Part shown: positions 1 to 58,261 of the stretch, piece by piece
How positions within the stretch are numbered: position 1 is the stretch's first letter
Layout of the letters: every line of letters begins with the position of its first letter
DNA from: Heterodontus francisci
Lineage: Eukaryota
Assembly: GCF_036365525.1 (NCBI RefSeq)
Contig: NC_090388.1
Location: 22,072,587-22,136,586, forward strand
Reading direction: 5' to 3'
DNA: 64,000 bases
Notes under the pieces: model-generated
What the model was told of the DNA's origin: nothing
Seen by the model: only the letters and a program-made list of their open reading frames with translations
Database searches by the model: none
Made by a program: the position numbers and the translations under genes

Positions 1-1130
1 GCTGCCAGGTATCACTGTTTCCCACTCCCTCACTTGGGAGTGCTCTTTGTTTTGTAAAAGACCAGAACAGCATCTCTTCCCTCACTGAGAAAATTCCCCG
101 AGTTACATACTCTATCACAGGAGTACCCCTCCCTCCCCCCCACCCCCTCCCCCTCCCCAATCAAGCTGGCCTTCATGCTACTTACTTGGTGCATGAGCGC
201 AAACCTCCTGTATTTATATGAAATCCCAAGACCTGAGTCAGCCCCTGCTGATCAGGTAACCAGTTCTAACTAGTCACCTAATTAACTAACTGTGCAGCTG
301 CCACTAGCAGGCAGCTTATTTATCACCGACTAAGAAACTACAAGTTAAGGTTAAAGTTAAATTACACACTAAATGCAAAACTTGACTGGATTTTAGAAAG
401 AGGTCAACCCTTAAAATTCTCTCGCTGACCAAATTCCCCGAGTTATGTTTTCTGTCATTGCAGTACTCCGTTGAGCTGGACTTCATGCTTCTTACTTCTA
501 CCGCTACTTTCTGGAATTCCAGGCCCCCCACCTCCAAAGAGCTGAGAAAATTCCAGGCCTTGTGTTCTCCTCTGTTTCTTGGAGATGCTCTTTATCACTA
601 TTTGTTTATCTGAGTCTTTTGCATTCCTTCTATCTCATCTTTGCATTAGTCAGTCCTTCTCTCTATTGTGTACCTTCTATTCTACATGTCGGGCATTTCA
701 GTCTGCATCAATTTCTGTATTTGTCCCAATCTCCTTTTCTGTCTTTTTTCCCTTGCATACAAGCTCATCACACATGTTCTTTACTCTTCTCTGAGACTTA
801 TTTATTAGTGTTTGAATGGTCAAGTCCCGTCTGGCATAGCAGAAATTCTGAGGTCAGGATCTCAGAAGGTTAGAGAGACCTGGCTGAGGAGAAGAAATAA
901 TCTGAACAGGCTATAAACTGAGTCAGCTGGGGAGAGGGATGATGTAGGTAAAGGCCTGGCCTCAAGGAGAAAGCAAATTTTAAAAGAGTAAGAGCATTAA
1001 AAATAATTTAAGGATATAAACTTAAAGTTATAGTGAAGTCCAAATAATTGAAAATATGGAAGTAGGATAAAAGGGTATGGGTAGAAAGTACAACTATAAA
1101 CATTGGCTGCCTCATCCATTCTTGTAGGGT

Positions 1131-19279: not shown

Positions 19280-19550
19280 TGCCACTGATTGCAGATGGGT
19301 AGATGGTTCAGTAAAATATTTGTTTAGAACCAGAACAATTGGATCTCAGCAGGAAAATTTACCATAAAGGGAAAAATGATCATGGCACCATTGTTTCCAA
19401 AAATGTATATGTATGAAGCGTTTCCAAAATAATGAACTACAATGAAATCACAACATTGCTAAAAAGATTTATAACTTTAAATAAAGATAGAAAATGCCGG
19501 AAATACACAACAGGTCCAGCAGCATCTGTGGAGAAAGAGACAGAGTTAAT

Positions 19551-20345
19551 GGACTGACTTTTACCAGCCCCTCAGCACTGTGAGTCGTGGTGGGGAAGCC
19601 GGTAAAATTCCGCGGGGAGAGGCCTGCCTCGACTGCCAATGTTGAGAAGAGCCCGCCACAGATTACCGGGGCCGGGCGGACTTCGGTGTGGCCCACCCCC
19701 CACCCCCCCACAACCGCCAAGTGGCGGGGCCTTCATCTACATATTTAAATTAACAAAAATTAGATGCAAATGAACTTACCTGCTGGTGGCAGCTGTCCCA
19801 CGCTGATTTTACGACCACTGAATGCAACTCGCGCTCCTTCAGAACCCCATACGGAGTTCCGAGGCGAGGCACTGGTGTGGAGAGGGGAGGAATTAAATTA
19901 TCAGGGCGGGAGGGGTGGGGAAGCGGGGAAAACATTTTTTTTTTGGCTGTGAGAATGGTGGGAAGGAGCTGAAGGGCAAATGTTAGAAGGTTGGGTGGGG
20001 GGTCGTGGAGCGGGGGGAAGTTTGGATTGGAAATAAAATGCATTCTGTGAATATAGGGCAATAGAAAGACCATTGTGGGGGTTGGGAAAGGGCCGCCATC
20101 TCCTAATTATTAAAAACAAATTAAGTATAATACATCTTCAAAAATTTAAATATTTGCTAAGGGCATGAAACCCTTTAAAAATAGAAGCGGCGCCTGTGCC
20201 GTCATTTACGTCTACGTCATCGGGAAAGGCCGCTCCACCTCCTGCATTTAAATCAGCCGCCGCGTGTAATATCACAGGGGCTGTGTGGCAGCACTTCCAT
20301 GTCGGAAGGCCACTGCTTTCACAGTGTGCCAATAAAATTCAGCCC
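19551..20345. mobile_element. Harbinger-type MITE inserted in a Penelope terminal fragment
   Basis: TIRs GGACTGACTTTTA ... TAAAATTCAGCCC; flanks AAT/ACT; host reads cagagttaat|gtttcagg when rejoined. Confidence 0.75.
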
Positions 20346-21129
20346 ACTGTTTCAGGTTGATAACCTATCAGAACAGTTCCCTCATACAGATGTTGCCTGA
20401 TCTGCTGAGTACTTCCAGCATTTACTATTTTTATTTCAGATATCCAGCATCCACAGTATTTTGCTTTTCTAACTGTAAACTTTCCTTCAGGTGCTTCTAA
20501 TAATTGAATGAGGGCAGCATGTCAGATAACCAATATGTTTTATTTCTACTTGTGGGTTAATATTAATAAGGGCACAAGTTTTGTGGCAATGCACAGACAT
20601 GGATTTAACAGGAGTGCTCACTAGTTTATGATTGGGGAGCCACAGGGTTCACTCTCTGGCCAACCAGCAACAACAACTTGCACTTATCCACCTCCAAAAA
20701 CATGGGAAGTACTTCAGAGGCGAATTCAGACAAAAACCGACACCAAGCCAAAATGAGATATTAGAAAGGGTAATGAAAAGCTTAGTCAAAGCGGTGGGTT
20801 CTAAGGAGGAAAACAATGAACCCTGTTGCACCACTTTTCTGTAAATACCACATAGCAAAACTAGTGACTTTGGAAAATATATGCATATTTTCTCAAACAG
20901 AATAACGTATGAATTTTTTAAAAACTTAACCTACAGCAGTTGTCATCTGATGTGCTAATTTGCACTGATAGGAAACAATGCAATACAAGAGTCAAGTTTA
21001 AAGAGGATCAGGATATACAAAATATATTTAATGCTTTCTTCAGCTTTCACAAAATGATGACTAAACAAATTCTGGTAAATGGAGATAAGTGGTCCGTAAC
21101 ATATGGAGCTAATTAAAAATATATTCTGG

Positions 21130-32855: not shown

Positions 32856-33925
32856 ACTTGACCAGTAACAAGGTTGATTCATTTACCATCAAGCTCTTTT
32901 TCATCATCTGCCATGGGTTCACAGGTACTTAAAACTGACTGCCTCTTATCCCTTTTTGAGGCACAATTTCCTCTAAGTGGAATGTATAATATTCCCAATG
33001 ATTTGCAACCATAGTAGTAAATTACAGCTAGAAATCTGCTGGGATTCTTTTAAATGTTTATTCCTTTTCTTTAATCTACACCTATCTACTGAGATGGACT
33101 ACTGGGTCAGAGCTGCTTGATTTTAAGTCATTTTAATGCAAATTACAACTCGTTATTTTGTTGCTTTTTAAAAAAAATAAAAATGGCTCAATAACAGTGG
33201 CTCACCCTCAATGCTATTTAATATTCGATTCAGTCTGCATATATTTTAGCAGCATGCAACTGAAAGTACAGGAGACCAATCCATTTTAATCTTTCAAATG
33301 CTTGAGTTCTGGTTCCAAAAACACAAGGAACAAATCAAAGAACACAAGCCTCTGTAGCTGTTACTACGTTAAACATTTATTGTTAGACTATTTTTGACTC
33401 ATTGAGACCAAAGTTTAGAAATTACTGTTCGTAATAGTAGTAGACAAATGTTTAAAAGATGTGTTAGTCATCAGAAAAATATACAAGTCAGTAAAAGAAA
33501 AATCTCATATTTGATCTACAGTATCTACTTCTAAAATTGCCATTGCACTGCTGAAGCTACTGCAAGTGAGCATAGCAAGTTAAAGTCTTAATTGTATACC
33601 ATAACTATAAACAAATCGATTTACAAATGTAAAGTACTCACTTTCCAATGTGTTGAATAGAATATATGCAGATAACAGAGACCATTCATTTTGCAATGAC
33701 CAATTTATAATTTCTGAATATGGGACTCTGCACTTGCAAAGAACATTCTGACATGTGAAGCTAACCTCAAACTTGTAATAGAAGATTGCATGTCATTAAA
33801 TTAATGAGTTTTTTTTATTCTTTCATGAGATGTGCATCCCTTATTGCCCTTGACAATTGAGTGGCTTGCTGGCCACCCCCTGCAGATCTGGGGTCACATG
33901 TACAGCAGACCAGGTAAGATAAGAT

Positions 33926-34108
33926 AAAAGCGAAATACTGCGGATGCTGGAAATCTGAAATAAAAACAAGAAATGCTGGAACCACTCAGCAGGTCTGGCA
34001 GCATCTGTGGAAAGAGAAGCAGAGTCACTGACCCGAAACGTTAACTCTGCTTCTCTTTCCACAGATGCTGCCAGACCTGCTGAGTGGTTCCAGCATTTGT
34101 TTTTATTT
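33926..34108. mobile_element. Palindromic Penelope terminal insertion
   Basis: Two inverted copies of the Penelope end, flanked by the direct repeat CAGGTAAGATAAGAT (33911-33925 and 34109-34123). Confidence 0.85.
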
Positions 34109-34503
34109 CAGGTAAGATAAGATCTTGATCCAAATGGGGTTTTACAACGATTCATGGTACTACCATTACTGTTACTAGCTTTTAATTCCAGATTTTTATT
34201 TATTAACTGATTGAATTTACTAACTAAATTTCACCTACTGCCATAGCAGGATTTAAACCGCTTACCCCCAAGCAGTACCTTAACATTCAAATACTAGTTT
34301 AGGGACGTTACCACTACACCATCATCTCCCCAAGTATAAGCAAATGCAGTTTTACAGGATATGTACTACTTAACGGATTATACTTCGTAATGTTAAGTAA
34401 TTGAAAAAAAACTGAAAGTCCCGCACGGAGAACAGTACAGCAAGTTTTCATCCGCCGCTACTGCATTCATCCAAACGAACAAGCGTTTTGCCTTCATACC
34501 CAC

Positions 34504-36583: not shown

Positions 36584-37065
36584 TAAAGGCTGTGTGGGAA
36601 AATGCATACAGAAGGGAAGAACAGGGCAACTTAAATGTTAAAGTTAAAAATTAAGAACTCTCTGAGTTGCAGCAGACTGAAGCCCCAGGTACAGAATTGG
36701 AGAAGGTGAAGGAACCAGAGAAGATAACTTCGAGGAGGCTGCAACTTGGCAGAGGAACACAGAAATCACTGCAGAAAAGAGATAGCATTGATCACTGGGG
36801 TTAATTCTGGTGGAGGGCTGCCATGGAAAGGGGAGCTGGATAGAAAGTCTGAAGGCAAGCAAGATGTGTCCATAAAATGCAATGCAAATGAAGAAAACTC
36901 ACTGATATAGCACATTGAAGCACCAGTGCAGAGGTGGAAAGGGTGAAAGAACTCCAAATGCCTGTTCGATGGAAATCACTACACATTGCCAGCCAGTGAT
37001 CCAGGCTAGAGAAGTCGCGCTCAACAGTTGGCATCGAACACAATTGTGTTGGACACAATGACACA

Positions 37066-37648
37066 ACTGAACAAACTAAGATGAAATAAAATAAATGCAA
37101 AAAAAGATTGTAAAAAATGTAAAAAAAGAAAGAAAAAAAGAAAAAAGAAAAAACAACTAAAAATGAAAGCAAAATGGGGGCTGTCATGCTCTGAAATTAT
37201 TGAACTCAATGCTCAGTCCGGCAGGCTGTAGTGTGCCTAATCGGTAGATGAGATGCTGTTCCTCAAGCTTGCGTTGATGTTCACTGGAACACTGCAGTTT
37301 GTTCAGTTTGCTTACCCACTGTTTTTTTTCATGTTTGCACTTGCTGCTGTTCAATATTCAGTCCGTTAACACCTTTTTAGTACTAATGCTTTGTCTTTCA
37401 ACACACCATTAACATATTGTTTGCCTTTGCTCCATGACCTTTTGGTCAGCTATGTGGCCTTGTCCAATCTACACCTTCTCCTTTGTTATCTCTTGCCCCA
37501 CCCCCACCTCACTTGCTTATAACCTGTGACATTTTTAATATTTGTCAGTTCCGAAGAAGGGTCACTGACCCGAAACATTAACTCTGCTTCTCTTTCCACA
37601 GATGCTGCCAGACCTGCTGAGTGGTTCCAGCATTTCTTGTTTTTATTA
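37066..37648. mobile_element. Penelope-like element with internal inversion
   Basis: 37066-37297 matches 55997-56237 directly; 37298-37645 is the reverse complement of about 55645-56006. Confidence 0.88.
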
Positions 37649-38689
37649 CAGCAAATTGGGAGCTCTGCAGTCAGAGGCAAACATTGAAGAGGAAGTTAAT
37701 ACAGAACCTCTGACACTGGGTGAAGAAAGGACAAGTGAAATTATGAAAAAGAAGGAAATAGCGAAGGCAGAAGTACTGGAAGCTGATGAGAAAGTTGAAG
37801 AAATGAATGAACAGGCTGAAGAGGTTGCAGCAAAACCGGGTCAGGAAGCAGAGGAGCAGAATACGGAGAAAAGTGAAGAGACGCCCAAGTCAGCACTTCA
37901 GCTAATTGCGAGTAGCCTGAATTCTTCAACGCACTTTGGTGAGCTACAGATTGCTGTTATCAGCTTCTTCATGGAGAGAAAGCTAACGGTCATTTCCATC
38001 AGTATCAAGAAATCCAGAAAACATGGTCATGTAACCTGAAAGGACCTAAGTACAGCAATGAAGTACAGTAGGGAACAGTTGCTGGGCCGTGACCTGCAAT
38101 TGTGGGGATTACAGCAGATTCAGAAACCTGTGGCAACTGTCCAGGGCAAGAAAGAAAAGCTTAAGGAATCCGACCGACACTCAATGATCCTGCCCTCAGC
38201 TAGAAGAAAAAGTTTGGAAAACATCCTCTTTAAGAAAAACAAGAAGGAGCCCACATCTCTATTGAAGAAGAAAAGGAGAAAAAGCAGGAATAATTTGAAA
38301 AAACAGAGGAAGAGGAAGAAGCTCTTAGGTCAATAGTCTATTTCAGCTACCTGATTTCCCCTGAATCCCCCCATCACTTAGCCTGAAGTCCATCCTTCAA
38401 TGCACAGCTACCTTGCAAGAACGTTTGGTTTGTGTGCAATAGGATAATAAAGATATTGAAAAAGGAATCAAAACCTTAGGAGATTTCTCAATGGATGTTA
38501 ACAAAATTCTTGTAACATTTATTTAGAAGGAAAGAAACGTACATTACATTACTCAAATAGCTACCTGTTAAGTGGTAAGGTTAGTATTACCAAGGTTTTA
38601 GTTGGTTTAATTTATTACTAATTACTAATTAGAAACTGCAGCTTGGACAGAGTGTGAGGCAGTGAGTTGGTGTGAGAGGGAGTTCAGTG

Positions 38690-54276: not shown

Positions 54277-54520
54277 CTATAGAATTTTGGAAGATGACCA
54301 CCGACGCATCCATTATCTCTGCAGCCACCTCTTTCAGCACTCTGGGATGTAGATCATCAGGTCCAGGGGATTTATCAACTTTCTGTCCCTTTAATTTCTA
54401 CAGTACTACTTTTTTTTAACTACTACTAATCTCTTTCAGTTCTTCATTCTTACTAGTCCTTTAGTGCTCTAGTATTCCTGGGAGGTTGTTTGTATCTTCC
54501 TCTTTGAAGACAGACACAAA

Positions 54521-55189
54521 AGGCTGAATTTTACCCTGCCCCAGTTGGTTGGATAGTGGTGTGGGACCGGCCTAAAATTGAGCGGGAGGCTCCGGGAGGC
54601 TTTCCCACCCCGCTCCCACCTCCGGCCAACTTTCCAGCGGTCGGGCGGTGGGGGGAAATGGCCCACCTGCCTGAGGCCAATCAAGGCCCTCAAGTGGCCA
54701 CTTAACGGCCACTTAAGGGCCCTCGCCCATCTCCACGGGTATTTTACCCATGGCAAGCGGGAATGCAGGGGACGTGGAAGGTCGCCCAGCGATAGTTGTC
54801 AGCCTTTCCGCCTGCCGGGGAGGTGCCATGGCAATTGGGCACAGGGTGCCCGATTGAGGGCTGCCCCCACCTCCCAACCCACTCCCGGAACCCAAGACGC
54901 CCCCTTCCCCCCAAACGACCACCCTTGCCTCGCCGGGGTGCCCCTGATTCCCTCGGCGAGGCATCGAAAACCACCTTGGACCCTGGCTCCATGGCATCCT
55001 CCTCAGTCGGCTAGAATACAGTCCCAGCAGTGGCCACTGCTCTCGGTGGGTGGAAGTCTTGCCTCGGGATAATTAAAGCCCTGGTACCTGTAAAATGCAG
55101 GTCAGATCCCCGGGCTAGGCGGAAACAGGTTTGTCGCCGACTTTTACGTCGGCGGCAAAGTCCCATCCGCCTATGGTAAAATCCAGCCC
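54521..55189. mobile_element. Harbinger-type MITE
   Basis: TIRs AGGCTGAATTTTACC ... GGTAAAATCCAGCCC; 3-bp TSD AAA. Confidence 0.85.
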
Positions 55190-55607
55190 AAAGTATTTGT
55201 TTAGTTTCTCTGTCAGTTCCTTATTCCCCATTATAAATTCTCCTAACTCTGCCTGTTGTGGGACCACATTTGCCTTTGCTAATCTTTTCCTTTTTATATA
55301 CCTATAGAATCTTTTACAGTCCATTTTTATGTTTTTTGCTTGTTTATTTTTCATATTCTTTCTTTATCAGTTTCTTGGTCCTCCTTTGCTGAATTCTAAA
55401 ATGCTGCCAATCCTGAGGCTTACTCTTATGGCAACTTTATAAGCCTCTTCCTTTGATCTAATACATTCTTTAACTTCTCTTGTTAACCATGGTTGGATTA
55501 CCTTTCCTGCTGGGTTTTTGTGCCTCAAAGGAATATAAATTTGTCACAAATCATGTACTAATTCTTTAAATGCTAGCCATTGCCTGTCTACCATCATACC
55601 TTCTAAT

Positions 55608-56376
55608 ATAAAAGCAAAATACTGCAGATGCTGGAAATCTGAAACAAAAACAAGAAATGCTGGAATCACTCAGCAGGTCTGGCAGCATCTGTGGAAAGAG
55701 AAGCAGAGTTAACGTTTCGGGTCAGCGACCCTTCTTCAGAACTGACAAATATTAGAAAAGTCACAGATTATAAACAAGTGAGGTGGGGGTTGGGCAAGAG
55801 ATAACAAAGGAGAAGGTGCAGATTGGACCAGGCCACATAGCTGACCAAAAGGTCACGGAGCAAAGGCAAACAATATGTTAATGGTGTGTTGAAAGACAAA
55901 GCATTAGTACAGATTAGGCGTGAATATACTGAATATTGAACAGCAGCAAGTGCAAACCTGAAGAAAAACAACCTGAAAAAAACAGTGGGTAAGCAAACTG
56001 AACAAACTAAGATGAAATGAAATAAATGCAAAAAAGGATTGTAAAAAATGTAAAAAGGAATGTAAAAAAAAGGAAGAAAAAATAACTAAAAATGACTAAA
56101 AATGAAAGTAAAGTGGGGGGCTGTCATGCTCTGAACTTATTGAACTCAATGTTCAGTCCGGCAGGCTGTAGTGTGCCTAATCGGTAGATGAGATGCTGTT
56201 CCTCGAGCTTGCGTTGATGTTCACTGGAACACTGCAGCAATCCCAGGACAGAGATGTGAGCATGAGAGCAAGGGGGAGTGTTGAAATGGCAAGCAACCGG
56301 AAGCTCAGGGTCCTGCTTGCGGACTGAGCGGAGATGTTCCGCAAAGCGGTCACCCAGTCTGCGCTTGGTCTCCCCA
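55608..56376 (-). mobile_element. 5'-truncated Penelope-like element (GIY-YIG endonuclease C-terminus + pLTR)
   Basis: IGETKRRLGDRFAEHLRSV..PVACHFN..EQHLIYRLGTLQPAGLN; 15-bp TSD ATCATACCTTCTAAT (55593-55607 and 56377-56391). Confidence 0.93.
55707..55743 (-). ncRNA. Minimal type I hammerhead ribozyme (Penelope-associated)
   Basis: Reads AGTT-CTGAAGA-A-GGGTC-GCT-GACCC-GAAA-CG-TT-AACT: core CUGANGA and GAAA, stem I AGTT/AACT, stem II of 5 bp, palindromic stem III. Confidence 0.75.
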
Positions 56377-58261
56377 ATCATACCTTCTAATGTAGTTTCC
56401 AAGTCTACCATAGCCAATTTGCACCTCATACCTTTGTAGTTTCCTTTGTTTAGATTTAAGACCCTAGTTTCGGATTGAACTACATTACTTTCAAATTTAA
56501 TGTAAAATTCTATCATATTTTGGCCACACTTCCTTAGAGGCTCCTTTACAATGAGATTATTAATCAGCCCTTTCTCATTGCACAATACTAGATCTAAAAT
56601 AGCCCATTCTTTAGTCGGTTCGCCAAAATTCTGTTTGAAGAAAACCAACTTGTATACATTCCAGGAATTCGTTCTCCACAGTAATAATGCTATTTAGTTC
56701 CTCTGCTAGTCCCTTATTCCTGATTAGTGCTCATTAGATTTATCCAGTCTATATGTAGATTGAATTCCCCATGATTACTGTATTCCCCTTGTTACATGCA
56801 CCTTTATTTTCCTGATTTATACCATGCCCGACATTACCAACTCCTACCAACGTTTGCTGCCTCTTGCTGTTTGTTAGCTCCACCCAAACTGATTCTACAT
56901 GATGATCTTCCGATCTAAGATCCTCTCTCAGTAATGTACTGATCTCATCCTTTATTAGCAGTGCTACCCCACCTCCTTTTCCTTTTTGCCTATCCTTCCT
57001 AAATGTCAAATACCCTTGGATATTCAGTTCCCAGCCTTGGTCACCCTGCAGCCATATCTCCATAATGGCAATTAGGCCATATCTGTTTACTTTCATTTGT
57101 GCCGTCAATTCATCTACCTTGTTGTGAATGCTGTGTGCATTCTCGTCGAGTGCCTTTAATTCTGTCTTTTTCTTATTTTCGCAAGCTCTTGCCTTATCTG
57201 CTGGCACACTTTTAGGTTTTTACACTCTGTCCCTTCCTGCCACACTCAGATTATCAATTCCCTTATTGCTACCTTGCTCTCTTTCCTTTTTCTCTCTCTT
57301 TAATTTATCATATCTTCCCTCACTTGATCCCTCGCCCCCACTATTTAGTTTAAAGTCCTCTCTACTGCCCGAGTTATATGATTCACCTGAACACTAGTCC
57401 CAGCATAGTTCAGGTGAAGACCGTCCCAACGGTACAGCTCCCACTTTCCCCAGTACTGGTGCCAGTGCTCCATGAATCAAAACCCTTTTCTCCCACACCA
57501 ATCTTTCAGCCACACATTTAACTCTGTAATTTTATTTACCCTACTCCAATTTGCTTGTGGCTCAGGTAATAATCCAGAGATTATTATCTTTGAGATTCGG
57601 CTTTTAATTTCTCATTAATTGCTCATACTCTCTAAGCAGACCCTCTTTTATAGTCTTACCTATGCTGTTGGTACCTACGTAGACCATGACAACTGGTTTC
57701 TCTCCCTCCCTCTGCAAGTTCCTCTCCAGCCCAGAGCAGATGTCCCAAACCCTGGTGTCAGGCTGGCAACACAACCTTCTGGACTCTCGCTCTCAGCTGC
57801 AGAGAACTGTTTCTATCCCCCGACTATACCGTGCCCTACTACCATTACTTGCCTATTAATGTCCCTGCTTGAATGGCTTCCTGTGCCACAATACCACGGT
57901 CAGTTCACTCATCCACCTTGCAACCCCCGCTTTCGTCCATACAGGCTGCAAGAACCTCGAACCTGTTGGATAATTGCAAGGGCTGAGGCTCCTCCACTTC
58001 TACCTTCTCAATCCCCATAACTGTCTCACTAGCAGTCACACCCTCCTTTCTCTGACCATGAACCAAATCAGACAACCTTATCCTAAGGGATGTGACCGCC
58101 TCCTGGAACAACCACCTGGCAAAGTTTGCCCAGGTATGCCTTGCCCACAAAATGGAGAACAAGTCCAATATGGCCAATTATCGCCCACCAGTCTACTCTC
58201 AATCACTAATAAAGTGATGGAAGGTCTTGTCGACAATGCCATCAAGTGACACTTACTCACC

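What the first reader, a model, noticed from the sequence alone, without database searches (positions are those of the whole stretch)
55707..55743. Intact-looking minimal hammerhead ribozyme in a Penelope terminus
Seen: the minus strand reads AGTT CTGAAGA A GGGTC GCT GACCC GAAA CG TT AACT. This gives both catalytic boxes, stem I (AGTT/AACT), stem II and an ACGT palindrome in place of stem III. Known: Penelope-like element termini carry minimal type I hammerheads with a very short stem III, proposed to cleave as dimers. Inference: this copy could self-cleave after GUU when dimerised. It sits in a well-preserved insertion with a 15-bp TSD.
Basis: partly seen in the sequence, partly recalled or inferred. 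Interest (0 to 1): 0.7.

Follow-up and report, generated by a model that had tools for sequence, protein, structure and literature searches.

The report
Penelope hammerhead restored by chance mutation
This is the small self-cutting RNA motif already known from Penelope-type jumping genes, but its perfect look is likely an accident: about 16,000 sister copies and all intact parent elements checked carry a changed core letter, this copy likely mutated back after it inserted, and the family likely spread with little or no RNA cutting.

Summary
The 37-nt motif and the 15-bp target-site duplication are real. It is a textbook minimal type I hammerhead in the terminal repeat of a 769-bp, 5'-truncated Penelope-like element (Neptune-type linker). 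The twist: its subfamily does not have the canonical core. Genome-wide exact counts are CCGA 15,870, CTGA 572, CCAA 547, so canonical U4 is no commoner than the mirror CpG-decay product. In this copy's own sub-lineage it is 3 versus 385, and 12 of 12 hammerheads at intact-ORF loci read CCGA. Older subfamilies keep U4 (90-91 of 100). This copy is therefore most likely a neutral CpG revertant of a U4C parent, not a preserved ribozyme. It has no intact same-strand partner nearby, and it was itself copied through the predicted cut site. Genomic copies begin at the hammerhead's first base (a likely capped start), hardly ever at the cut site, so uncut RNA is the likely template. Cleavage was not testable.

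The parts
55707..55743 (-). Minimal type I hammerhead: stem I 55743-55740 with 55710-55707; CUGAAGA core 55739-55733; extra A 55732; stem II 55731-55727 with 55723-55719; GAA 55718-55716; ACGU palindrome 55715-55712; U17 55711; predicted cut between 55711 and 55710
   Evidence: consensus in Cervera and De la Pena 2014 Fig. S3 text
55738..55738 (-). Position 4 of the core: T here, C in the parent subfamily; likely CpG deamination after insertion
55608..56376 (-). 769-bp 5'-truncated copy of a young Penelope-like element (end of endonuclease, 3' UTR/pLTR, hammerhead, tail)
   Evidence: nearest relatives 98.5-98.8% identical
56142..56375 (-). [quoted passage not shown]
   Evidence: full 916-aa RT+EN frame in L051
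55740..55745 (-). Initiator-like TCAGTT (consensus recalled); its A (55743) is the first base of stem I and the likely transcription start
   Evidence: pile-up of copy 5' ends at +1 to +3; inferred, no RNA 5' ends seen
55608..55643 (-). Optional 'tail' between the two 3'-end peaks of the family (+94..106 and +133..145); carries a second CpG-type change at 55626
55593..55607 (.). Target-site duplication, copy at the element's 3' end; begins ATT on the element strand
56377..56391 (.). Target-site duplication, copy at the truncated 5' end (2-nt microhomology with the element makes the border 13-15 bp)

Best explanation
The motif is a minimal hammerhead in the terminal repeat of a truncated copy of a very abundant young Penelope-like retrotransposon whose parent elements carry a U4C core, and this copy's canonical U4 is likely a neutral CpG-to-TpG reversion that arose after insertion. 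Shown: the anatomy, the duplication, the copy counts, C4 in intact elements, U4 in older subfamilies, and that the insertion spans the predicted cut site. Inferred: (1) the element RNA likely starts, capped, at the first base of stem I; (2) the RT/endonuclease protein likely primes at an ATT-type target, starts copying 98-137 nt downstream of that base, and uses uncut RNA; (3) the ancestral ribozyme would cut only as a dimer through the ACGU palindrome, probably with protein help, and U4C likely weakens it further without harming spread; (4) this lone copy would be a weak dimer-dependent ribozyme in a test tube and likely does nothing at its locus.
For: Whole-genome exact counts with one 35-nt pattern: CCGA 15,870, CTGA 572, CCAA 547; 572 vs 547 is symmetric (binomial p 0.47), as CpG decay on either strand predicts. 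Same sub-lineage (GCT loop): CTGA 3, one being this copy, vs CCRA 385, first 100 rows 97 CCGA and 3 CCAA. 100 consecutive young copies chosen by a downstream anchor: 61 CCGA, 2 CCAA, 1 CTGA of 64 covering the core. Unselected 1 Mb: 9 otherwise perfect motifs with C4, 0 with U4. 12 of 12 hammerheads at six loci with intact ORFs are CCGA (L051-L055; L404), whereas U4 tandem/inverted loci L399 and L401 have frameshifts and stops. Older classes: 90 of first 100 rows CTGA (7,171 total), 91 of first 100 (3,897 total). Tree of 99 copies nests this copy among C4 copies. It has a second CpG-type change at 55626. 5' ends: 19 of 100 at +1 to +3, none truly at the cut product start +34; 3 of 30 loci with a non-T before +34 are true junctions, about 140 genome-wide, against about 4,100 at +1. 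Matches Frangieh 2024: uncut RNA is the main substrate, cleavage needs protein.
Against: No cleavage or RNA end was measured; only assembled contigs were available. T at 55738 equals the ancestral state, so descent from a rare U4 master or gene conversion cannot be excluded for this one copy; 2 of 28 close relatives covering the site also have T. U4C is the one core change reported to keep enough activity in vivo in a viroid (Perreault 2011 passage), so C4 elements may still cut. Absence of copies starting at +34 could mean cut RNA is degraded or cannot be copied, not that cutting is rare. The extra G before +1 (48 of first 100 rows) is confounded by fold-back junctions. One U4 locus kept a 593-aa open frame (L400).
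Confidence: 0.85

Rival explanations
1. This copy comes from a minor active lineage that kept or regained U4, or received U4 by conversion from an older copy, so its ribozyme was intact when it inserted.
For: U4 is ancestral and more than 10,000 older copies carry it; CTGA exceeds CCAA by 25; a few intermediate-age copies pair CTGA with C11.1 (L007, L011, L095).
Against: Excess not significant; only 3 exact copies in the sub-lineage; flanking diagnostic letters on both sides are of the young type; in L002 the two arms of one insertion differ, one CCGA and one CTGA with a second CpG change; CTGA copies are scattered over the young clade (support rough).
Confidence: 0.07
2. The family still depends on slow, protein-assisted dimer cleavage (for example to make unit-length or circular RNA), U4C only tunes the rate, and re-ligated RNA is what gets copied.
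For: All other core letters, stems and the palindrome are kept in the young subfamily, and pair 10.1-11.1 changed to the canonical G-C on the same lineage; tandem elements hold two or three hammerheads 3.29 kb apart; viroid U4C stays infectious.
Against: No footprint at the cut site; copies start at +1, upstream of the cut, with target DNA directly abutting; catalytic mutants did not affect insertion by the anole element in vitro. This rival concerns the family and is compatible with the reversion at this locus.
Confidence: 0.25
3. The sequence is now kept mainly as promoter or protein-binding signal at the start of the RNA, and the hammerhead fold is a relic.
For: Motif starts at the likely transcription start; D. 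virilis Penelope has an internal TATA-less promoter (Schostak 2008 passages); in its 136-nt context stem I has pairing probability about 0.1; the isolated 37-mer prefers a stem II homodimer (-23.2) to the double hammerhead (-13.7 kcal/mol).
Against: Variation among subfamilies sits at N7, loop II and one pair that stays paired (0 A-C mismatches in 27 unselected copies), which is what selection on the fold would give; energies ignore tertiary core and protein.
Confidence: 0.2
4. The host has domesticated this copy as an active ribozyme.
For: Canonical core and intact stems.
Against: Very young copy (6 private changes in 769 bp), no partner on the same strand within 30 kb beyond the window, about 570 equivalent revertants expected from decay alone.
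Confidence: 0.02

Closest known systems
Minimal hammerheads (min-HHR) in pLTRs of metazoan Penelope-like elements, Cervera and De la Pena 2014, PMC4209133
   Same: Type I, 4-bp stem I, extra nucleotide between 9 and 10.1, G10.1-C11.1, palindromic 15.2-16.2, located in the pLTR, mostly solo copies of truncated elements; dimers cleaved only weakly in their assays.
   Different: All representatives in the Fig. S3 text that I read have U at position 4 and no cartilaginous fish is listed; here the dominant, intact-ORF subfamily has C4 and the canonical copy is the exception.
Poseidon element PAc of Anolis carolinensis, Frangieh et al. 2024, PMC11167929
   Same: RT plus C-terminal GIY-YIG, tandem pLTRs, two internal RT start sites giving a tail, ATT target preference, uncut RNA as template, no RNA ends seen at the cut site.
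   Different: In PAc the ORF starts inside stem II and the core is canonical; here the long ORF's first ATG lies about 170 nt after +1, the linker has the CX4CX2C motif of Neptune/Nematis, and the core is U4C.
Neptune clade of EN+ PLEs, as defined in Craig et al. 2021, PMC8557442
   Same: C-terminal GIY-YIG, CX2-5CxxC linker, DKG motif, partial tandems, inverted 5'-truncated arms, 30-40-bp tail.
   Different: Clade placement was by motif only, no RT tree; this copy has a clear 15-bp duplication in ordinary sequence.
Natural U4C hammerhead of a viroid (Ambros and Flores 1998, seen only as cited in Perreault et al. 2011, PMC3088659)
   Same: Same core substitution in a natural hammerhead.
   Different: There a rare variant in a full three-stem ribozyme; here fixed in more than 16,000 copies of a minimal, dimer-dependent one.

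Membership tests
min-HHR of metazoan PLEs | CUGANGA and GAAA core boxes | tested here: met
   Met in this copy. Not met in its parent subfamily, which has CCGA.
min-HHR of metazoan PLEs | Extra nucleotide between 9 and 10.1, G10.1-C11.1 pair, short stem I | tested here: met
   A at 55732; G55731-C55719; 4-bp stem I; features as listed.
min-HHR of metazoan PLEs | No stem III, palindromic 15.2-16.2 allowing a dimer | tested here: met
   ACGU palindrome 55715-55712; a planar double hammerhead can be written, -13.7 kcal/mol.
min-HHR of metazoan PLEs | Position in the pLTR of a PLE | tested here: met
   Same motif at both repeats of full-length tandem elements.
min-HHR of metazoan PLEs | Covariation in stems across the family | tested here: inconclusive
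   Only pair 10.1-11.1 varies (G-C 12, A-U 10, G-U 4, U-U 1, A-C 0 of 27 unselected copies); one lineage path, 8 of 9 pairs never vary in the pattern-selected alignment, shuffles 39/500.
min-HHR of metazoan PLEs | Mg-dependent self-cleavage as a dimer | not testable with these tools
   Only contigs, no raw reads.
EN+ Penelope-like element, Neptune type | Single ORF with RT and C-terminal GIY-YIG endonuclease | tested here: met
   916 aa in L051; RVT_1 E 4.8e-06 and GIY-YIG E 0.0019, both below Pfam's cut-offs; DKG and YIDD motifs. The 77-aa window fragment alone has no Pfam hit.
EN+ Penelope-like element, Neptune type | CX2-5CxxC motif between RT and EN | tested here: met
   Residue 782 onward, CX4CX2C; definition.
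EN+ Penelope-like element, Neptune type | Partial tandems, inverted arms, optional 30-40-bp tail | tested here: met
   (3' ends: 52 of 100 at +94..106, 46 at +133..145).
EN+ Penelope-like element, Neptune type | RT phylogeny groups with Neptune | not tested
   No reference set fetched.
Non-LTR retrozyme | Non-coding tandem repeats with a type I hammerhead in each unit | tested here: not met
   Single copy attached to endonuclease-coding sequence; definition.
Rfam hammerhead families | Match to a curated covariance model | tested here: not met
   No hammerhead among 20 matches at E<=10 in the window.

The most novel reading that the evidence does not exclude
The most successful recent Penelope burst in this 6-Gb genome began when its hammerhead was crippled (U4C): because the ribozyme sits on the first 37 bases of the capped RNA and between the ORF and the RT start, cutting destroys the template, so the ribozyme is a brake on the element, and the roughly 570 CpG revertants like this copy plus more than 10,000 older U4 copies could act in trans as enzyme strands that cut C4 element RNA in mixed dimers.
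Probability: 0.15. Interest if true: 0.75.

Novelty: new variant of a known kind. Interest (0 to 1): 0.38.

Why it matters
The role of hammerheads in Penelope-like elements is an open question (Craig et al. 2021 passage). This family is a natural experiment: intact 916-aa elements with a C4 core, older relatives with U4, and chance revertants, all in one genome, so the effect of ribozyme strength on retrotransposition can be tested by one base. It is also a warning for motif searches: a CUGA descriptor picks out the accidental revertants and the old copies and misses the parent family (0 versus 9 hits in an unselected megabase). The locus itself is ordinary.

Tried and rejected
Rfam scan: no hammerhead hit. 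Idea that the 769-bp insert is a fixed-length non-autonomous element: rejected, relatives run on into the ORF. Idea that cut RNA is retrotransposed: rejected. Idea that the AG at +1/+2 is a used splice acceptor explaining the 5' ends: not supported, no shared upstream exon in 28 rows and no GT..AG joint among the 15 joints shown (2 more hidden). RNA ends at the cut site: no verdict, only contigs; no silent control stretch was laid, so the contigs do not show transcription. Pair counts on alignment A1 are biased, since most rows were fetched by patterns fixing those letters. The 21 of 21 CTGA in the old clade is partly biased by a U4 query; searches left that letter free. One search lists 150 of 150 scored hits at 100% identity, but translated examples differ by one residue, and its 86,399 candidates are not a copy count. 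Lunse et al. (RNA Biol, PLE hammerhead variants) and Ambros and Flores 1998 could not be read; supplement file 1 of Cervera 2014 was not searchable; any of them may bear on whether U4C in PLEs is in print.

Full report
Observation. The minus strand of 55707-55743 reads as described. It is the single window match to a hammerhead core pattern (0.02 expected) and to a descriptor that also checks stems. Rfam does not detect it. The flanking 15-bp duplication is exact. Below, +1 is 55743, the first base of stem I; the predicted cut is between +33 and +34.

The element. The 769-bp insert holds the last 77 codons of a GIY-YIG endonuclease, a 3' UTR, the hammerhead and 99 further bases. The window lies in a 6.0-Gb genome; that it is a cartilaginous fish is my impression and the label of earlier notes, not tested. 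Relatives continue into the ORF, so this is a 5' truncation. Full-length relatives have a 916-aa frame with RT and GIY-YIG matches below Pfam's cut-offs, DKG, YIDD and a CX4CX2C linker, which by the motif definition in Craig et al. 2021 (PMC8557442, passages) points to the Neptune type. They occur as 3.29-kb tandems and inverted pairs. A 34-nt stretch just downstream of the hammerhead has 50,720 exact copies. 3' ends fall in two peaks, 52 of 100 at +94..106 and 46 of 100 at +133..145, the known tail.

Fit to the known family. Cervera and De la Pena 2014 (PMC4209133; main text parts 1-2 of 4; supplement file 2 parts 1-2 of 3) define the minimal PLE hammerhead by a short stem I, an extra base after A9, G10.1-C11.1 and a palindrome at 15.2-16.2; monomers did not cleave, dimers cleaved weakly. 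This copy meets each sequence feature. Frangieh et al. 2024 (PMC11167929, parts 1-2 of 4) found the anole PLE hammerhead cleaves only with protein, that cleavage is not needed for insertion in vitro, and no RNA reads ending at the site.

The parent family is U4C. All 9 hammerheads at five loci chosen for a full-length ORF and 3 in a triple tandem read CCGA. Exact genome-wide counts of one 35-nt pattern: CCGA 15,870, CTGA 572, CCAA 547. C4 and G5 form a CpG, whose deamination gives CTGA or CCAA equally; 572 versus 547 gives p 0.47. In the GCT-loop sub-lineage of this copy, CTGA occurs 3 times including the window against 385 CCRA. Among 100 consecutive young copies picked by the downstream anchor, 61 of the 64 that cover the core are CCGA, 2 CCAA, 1 CTGA. 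In 100 evenly spaced 10-kb stretches the descriptor finds 9 motifs with C4, none with U4, none in 5 shuffles. Against 29 relatives at 97% or more (set enriched by both CCRA and CTGA searches), this copy differs from the majority at 8 places, 2 being lineage polymorphisms and 2 CpG-type changes, 55738 and 55626. A tree of 99 copies (those covering insert positions 380-725; bootstrap not settled) places it among C4 copies.

U4 is ancestral. With the letter left free, the class with a G-U pair at 10.1-11.1 (7,171 matches) has CTGA in 90 of the first 100 rows and the class with A-U (3,897) in 91 of 100. These copies have longer terminal branches, and the U4 loci L399 and L401 carry frameshifts and stops, L400 a 593-aa open stretch. 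Pair 10.1-11.1 is G-C 12, A-U 10, G-U 4, U-U 1, A-C 0 in 27 unselected copies, CCGA going with G-C in 10 of 12: one compensatory path, modest evidence for past selection on the fold; no other pair varies. C at position 4 is also the majority letter in contigs of four coded runs from three organisms and a metagenome (T share 13-27% by depth, reference-biased), so the variant is probably not private to this genome. What U4C does: Perreault et al. 2011 (PMC3088659, passages) state that a viroid U4C variant lowers activity considerably in vitro yet permits infectivity; Roberts et al. 2023 (PMC9901934, passage) report low activity for mutants of the CUGA turn other than the C3-G8 swap.

No footprint of cleavage; likely start site. 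The insertion runs from +136 through the cut site to 633 bases upstream, so its template was uncut or re-ligated. Of the 100 young copies, 34 extend 59 or more bases upstream, 5 end at -25 to -14, 6 at -2 to 0, 19 at +1 to +3, 31 at +4 to +19 and 5 beyond; the one scored at +34 is a 3-base deletion (some apparent ends are breaks by mutation). Genome-wide, 5,289 intact C4 motifs lack the element's base before +1; 22 of 28 inspected rows truly begin there, 6 are a sub-lineage variant, about 4,100 in all. By contrast 1,378 copies, young and old, have a non-T before +34, and of 30 inspected 25 are substitutions, 2 deletions and 3 true junctions, all in old copies, about 140 in all. The bases around +1 match the initiator consensus (recalled); G precedes +1 in 48 of the first 100 rows (my count; p 1.4e-5), with an extra G between duplication and +1 in L309 (script) and L308, L354 (by eye), but fold-back junctions confound this. 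A capped start at +1 is therefore inferred, not shown. D. virilis Penelope has an internal promoter (PMC2377424, passages).

This locus. No intact same-strand hammerhead lies in the window or 30 kb either side; the nearest sibling at 37547-37583 is on the other strand, with C4 and a broken palindrome. In its 136-nt context stem I is rarely formed (about 0.1) and the 37-mer prefers a stem II homodimer. A dimer would have to form in trans.

Literature reach. Searches gave no paper on a U4C PLE hammerhead; 'hammerhead' with 'U4C' returned only Perreault 2011. The closest paper on PLE hammerhead variants (Lunse et al.) was seen only as cited in a review (PMC6765202, passages), so absence from print is not established. 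Also seen: bioRxiv 10.64898/2026.07.22.740005 (part 1 of 5 and passages), PMC6155905 and PMC3376415 (passages, nothing bearing).

Earlier scan notes, read after the U4C, reversion and 5'-end results were in hand, report the U4C core and the +1 start on other DNA; they are not independent support. None of the excerpts shown mentions the reversion test.

Verdict. Observation confirmed; interpretation partly supported. The motif is a member of a known family; the noteworthy part is its subfamily, a U4C variant that amplified to tens of thousands of copies, of which this copy is most likely a chance revertant.

Noticed in passing
window 33924-34111: Short inverted two-arm insertion of the same young family; one arm starts inside stem II, the other at the end of stem I, so neither has a whole hammerhead. 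Its long hairpin gives spurious miRNA hits in Rfam.
   Followed up: partly
window 37065-37671: Sibling copy with an inverted 5' part; hammerhead at 37547-37583 (+) has C4 and a CpG-decayed palindrome.
   Followed up: yes
L149 near 4836 (+); window about 19500-20400 (-): An element of about 800 bp with GGG-starting terminal inverted repeats (Harbinger-like, label recalled) sits inside the stem III palindrome of old hammerheads, left half found on the far side in 2 of 6 such junctions checked: the palindrome may be an insertion hot spot. A similar element lies at about window 54520-55190.
   Followed up: partly
L051:2768-2860: A 30-codon upstream frame starting just after the hammerhead is in frame with the main ORF, separated by one TAA; pyrimidine-AG acceptor-like sites lie at +1/+2, before this ATG and before the main ATG. 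No matching splice joint among those shown.
   Followed up: partly
L298, L284, L290 (5' junctions): Short repeats of the first 6-10 bases of the RNA stacked at the 5' junction, suggesting repeated template jumps when the RT reaches +1.
   Followed up: no
L403 (G000:C1:235639000-235648999); G000:C3:183.0-185.8 Mb: Larger tandem or segmental arrays multiply single decayed copies (CTGA in the C1 array, CCAA in the C3 array), adding some non-independent rows to both counts.
   Followed up: partly
G000:C18:22156587-22166586 (L068:6019-6055, +): An older copy with a fully canonical U4 hammerhead and G-U closing pair about 34 kb from the finding, on the opposite strand.
   Followed up: partly
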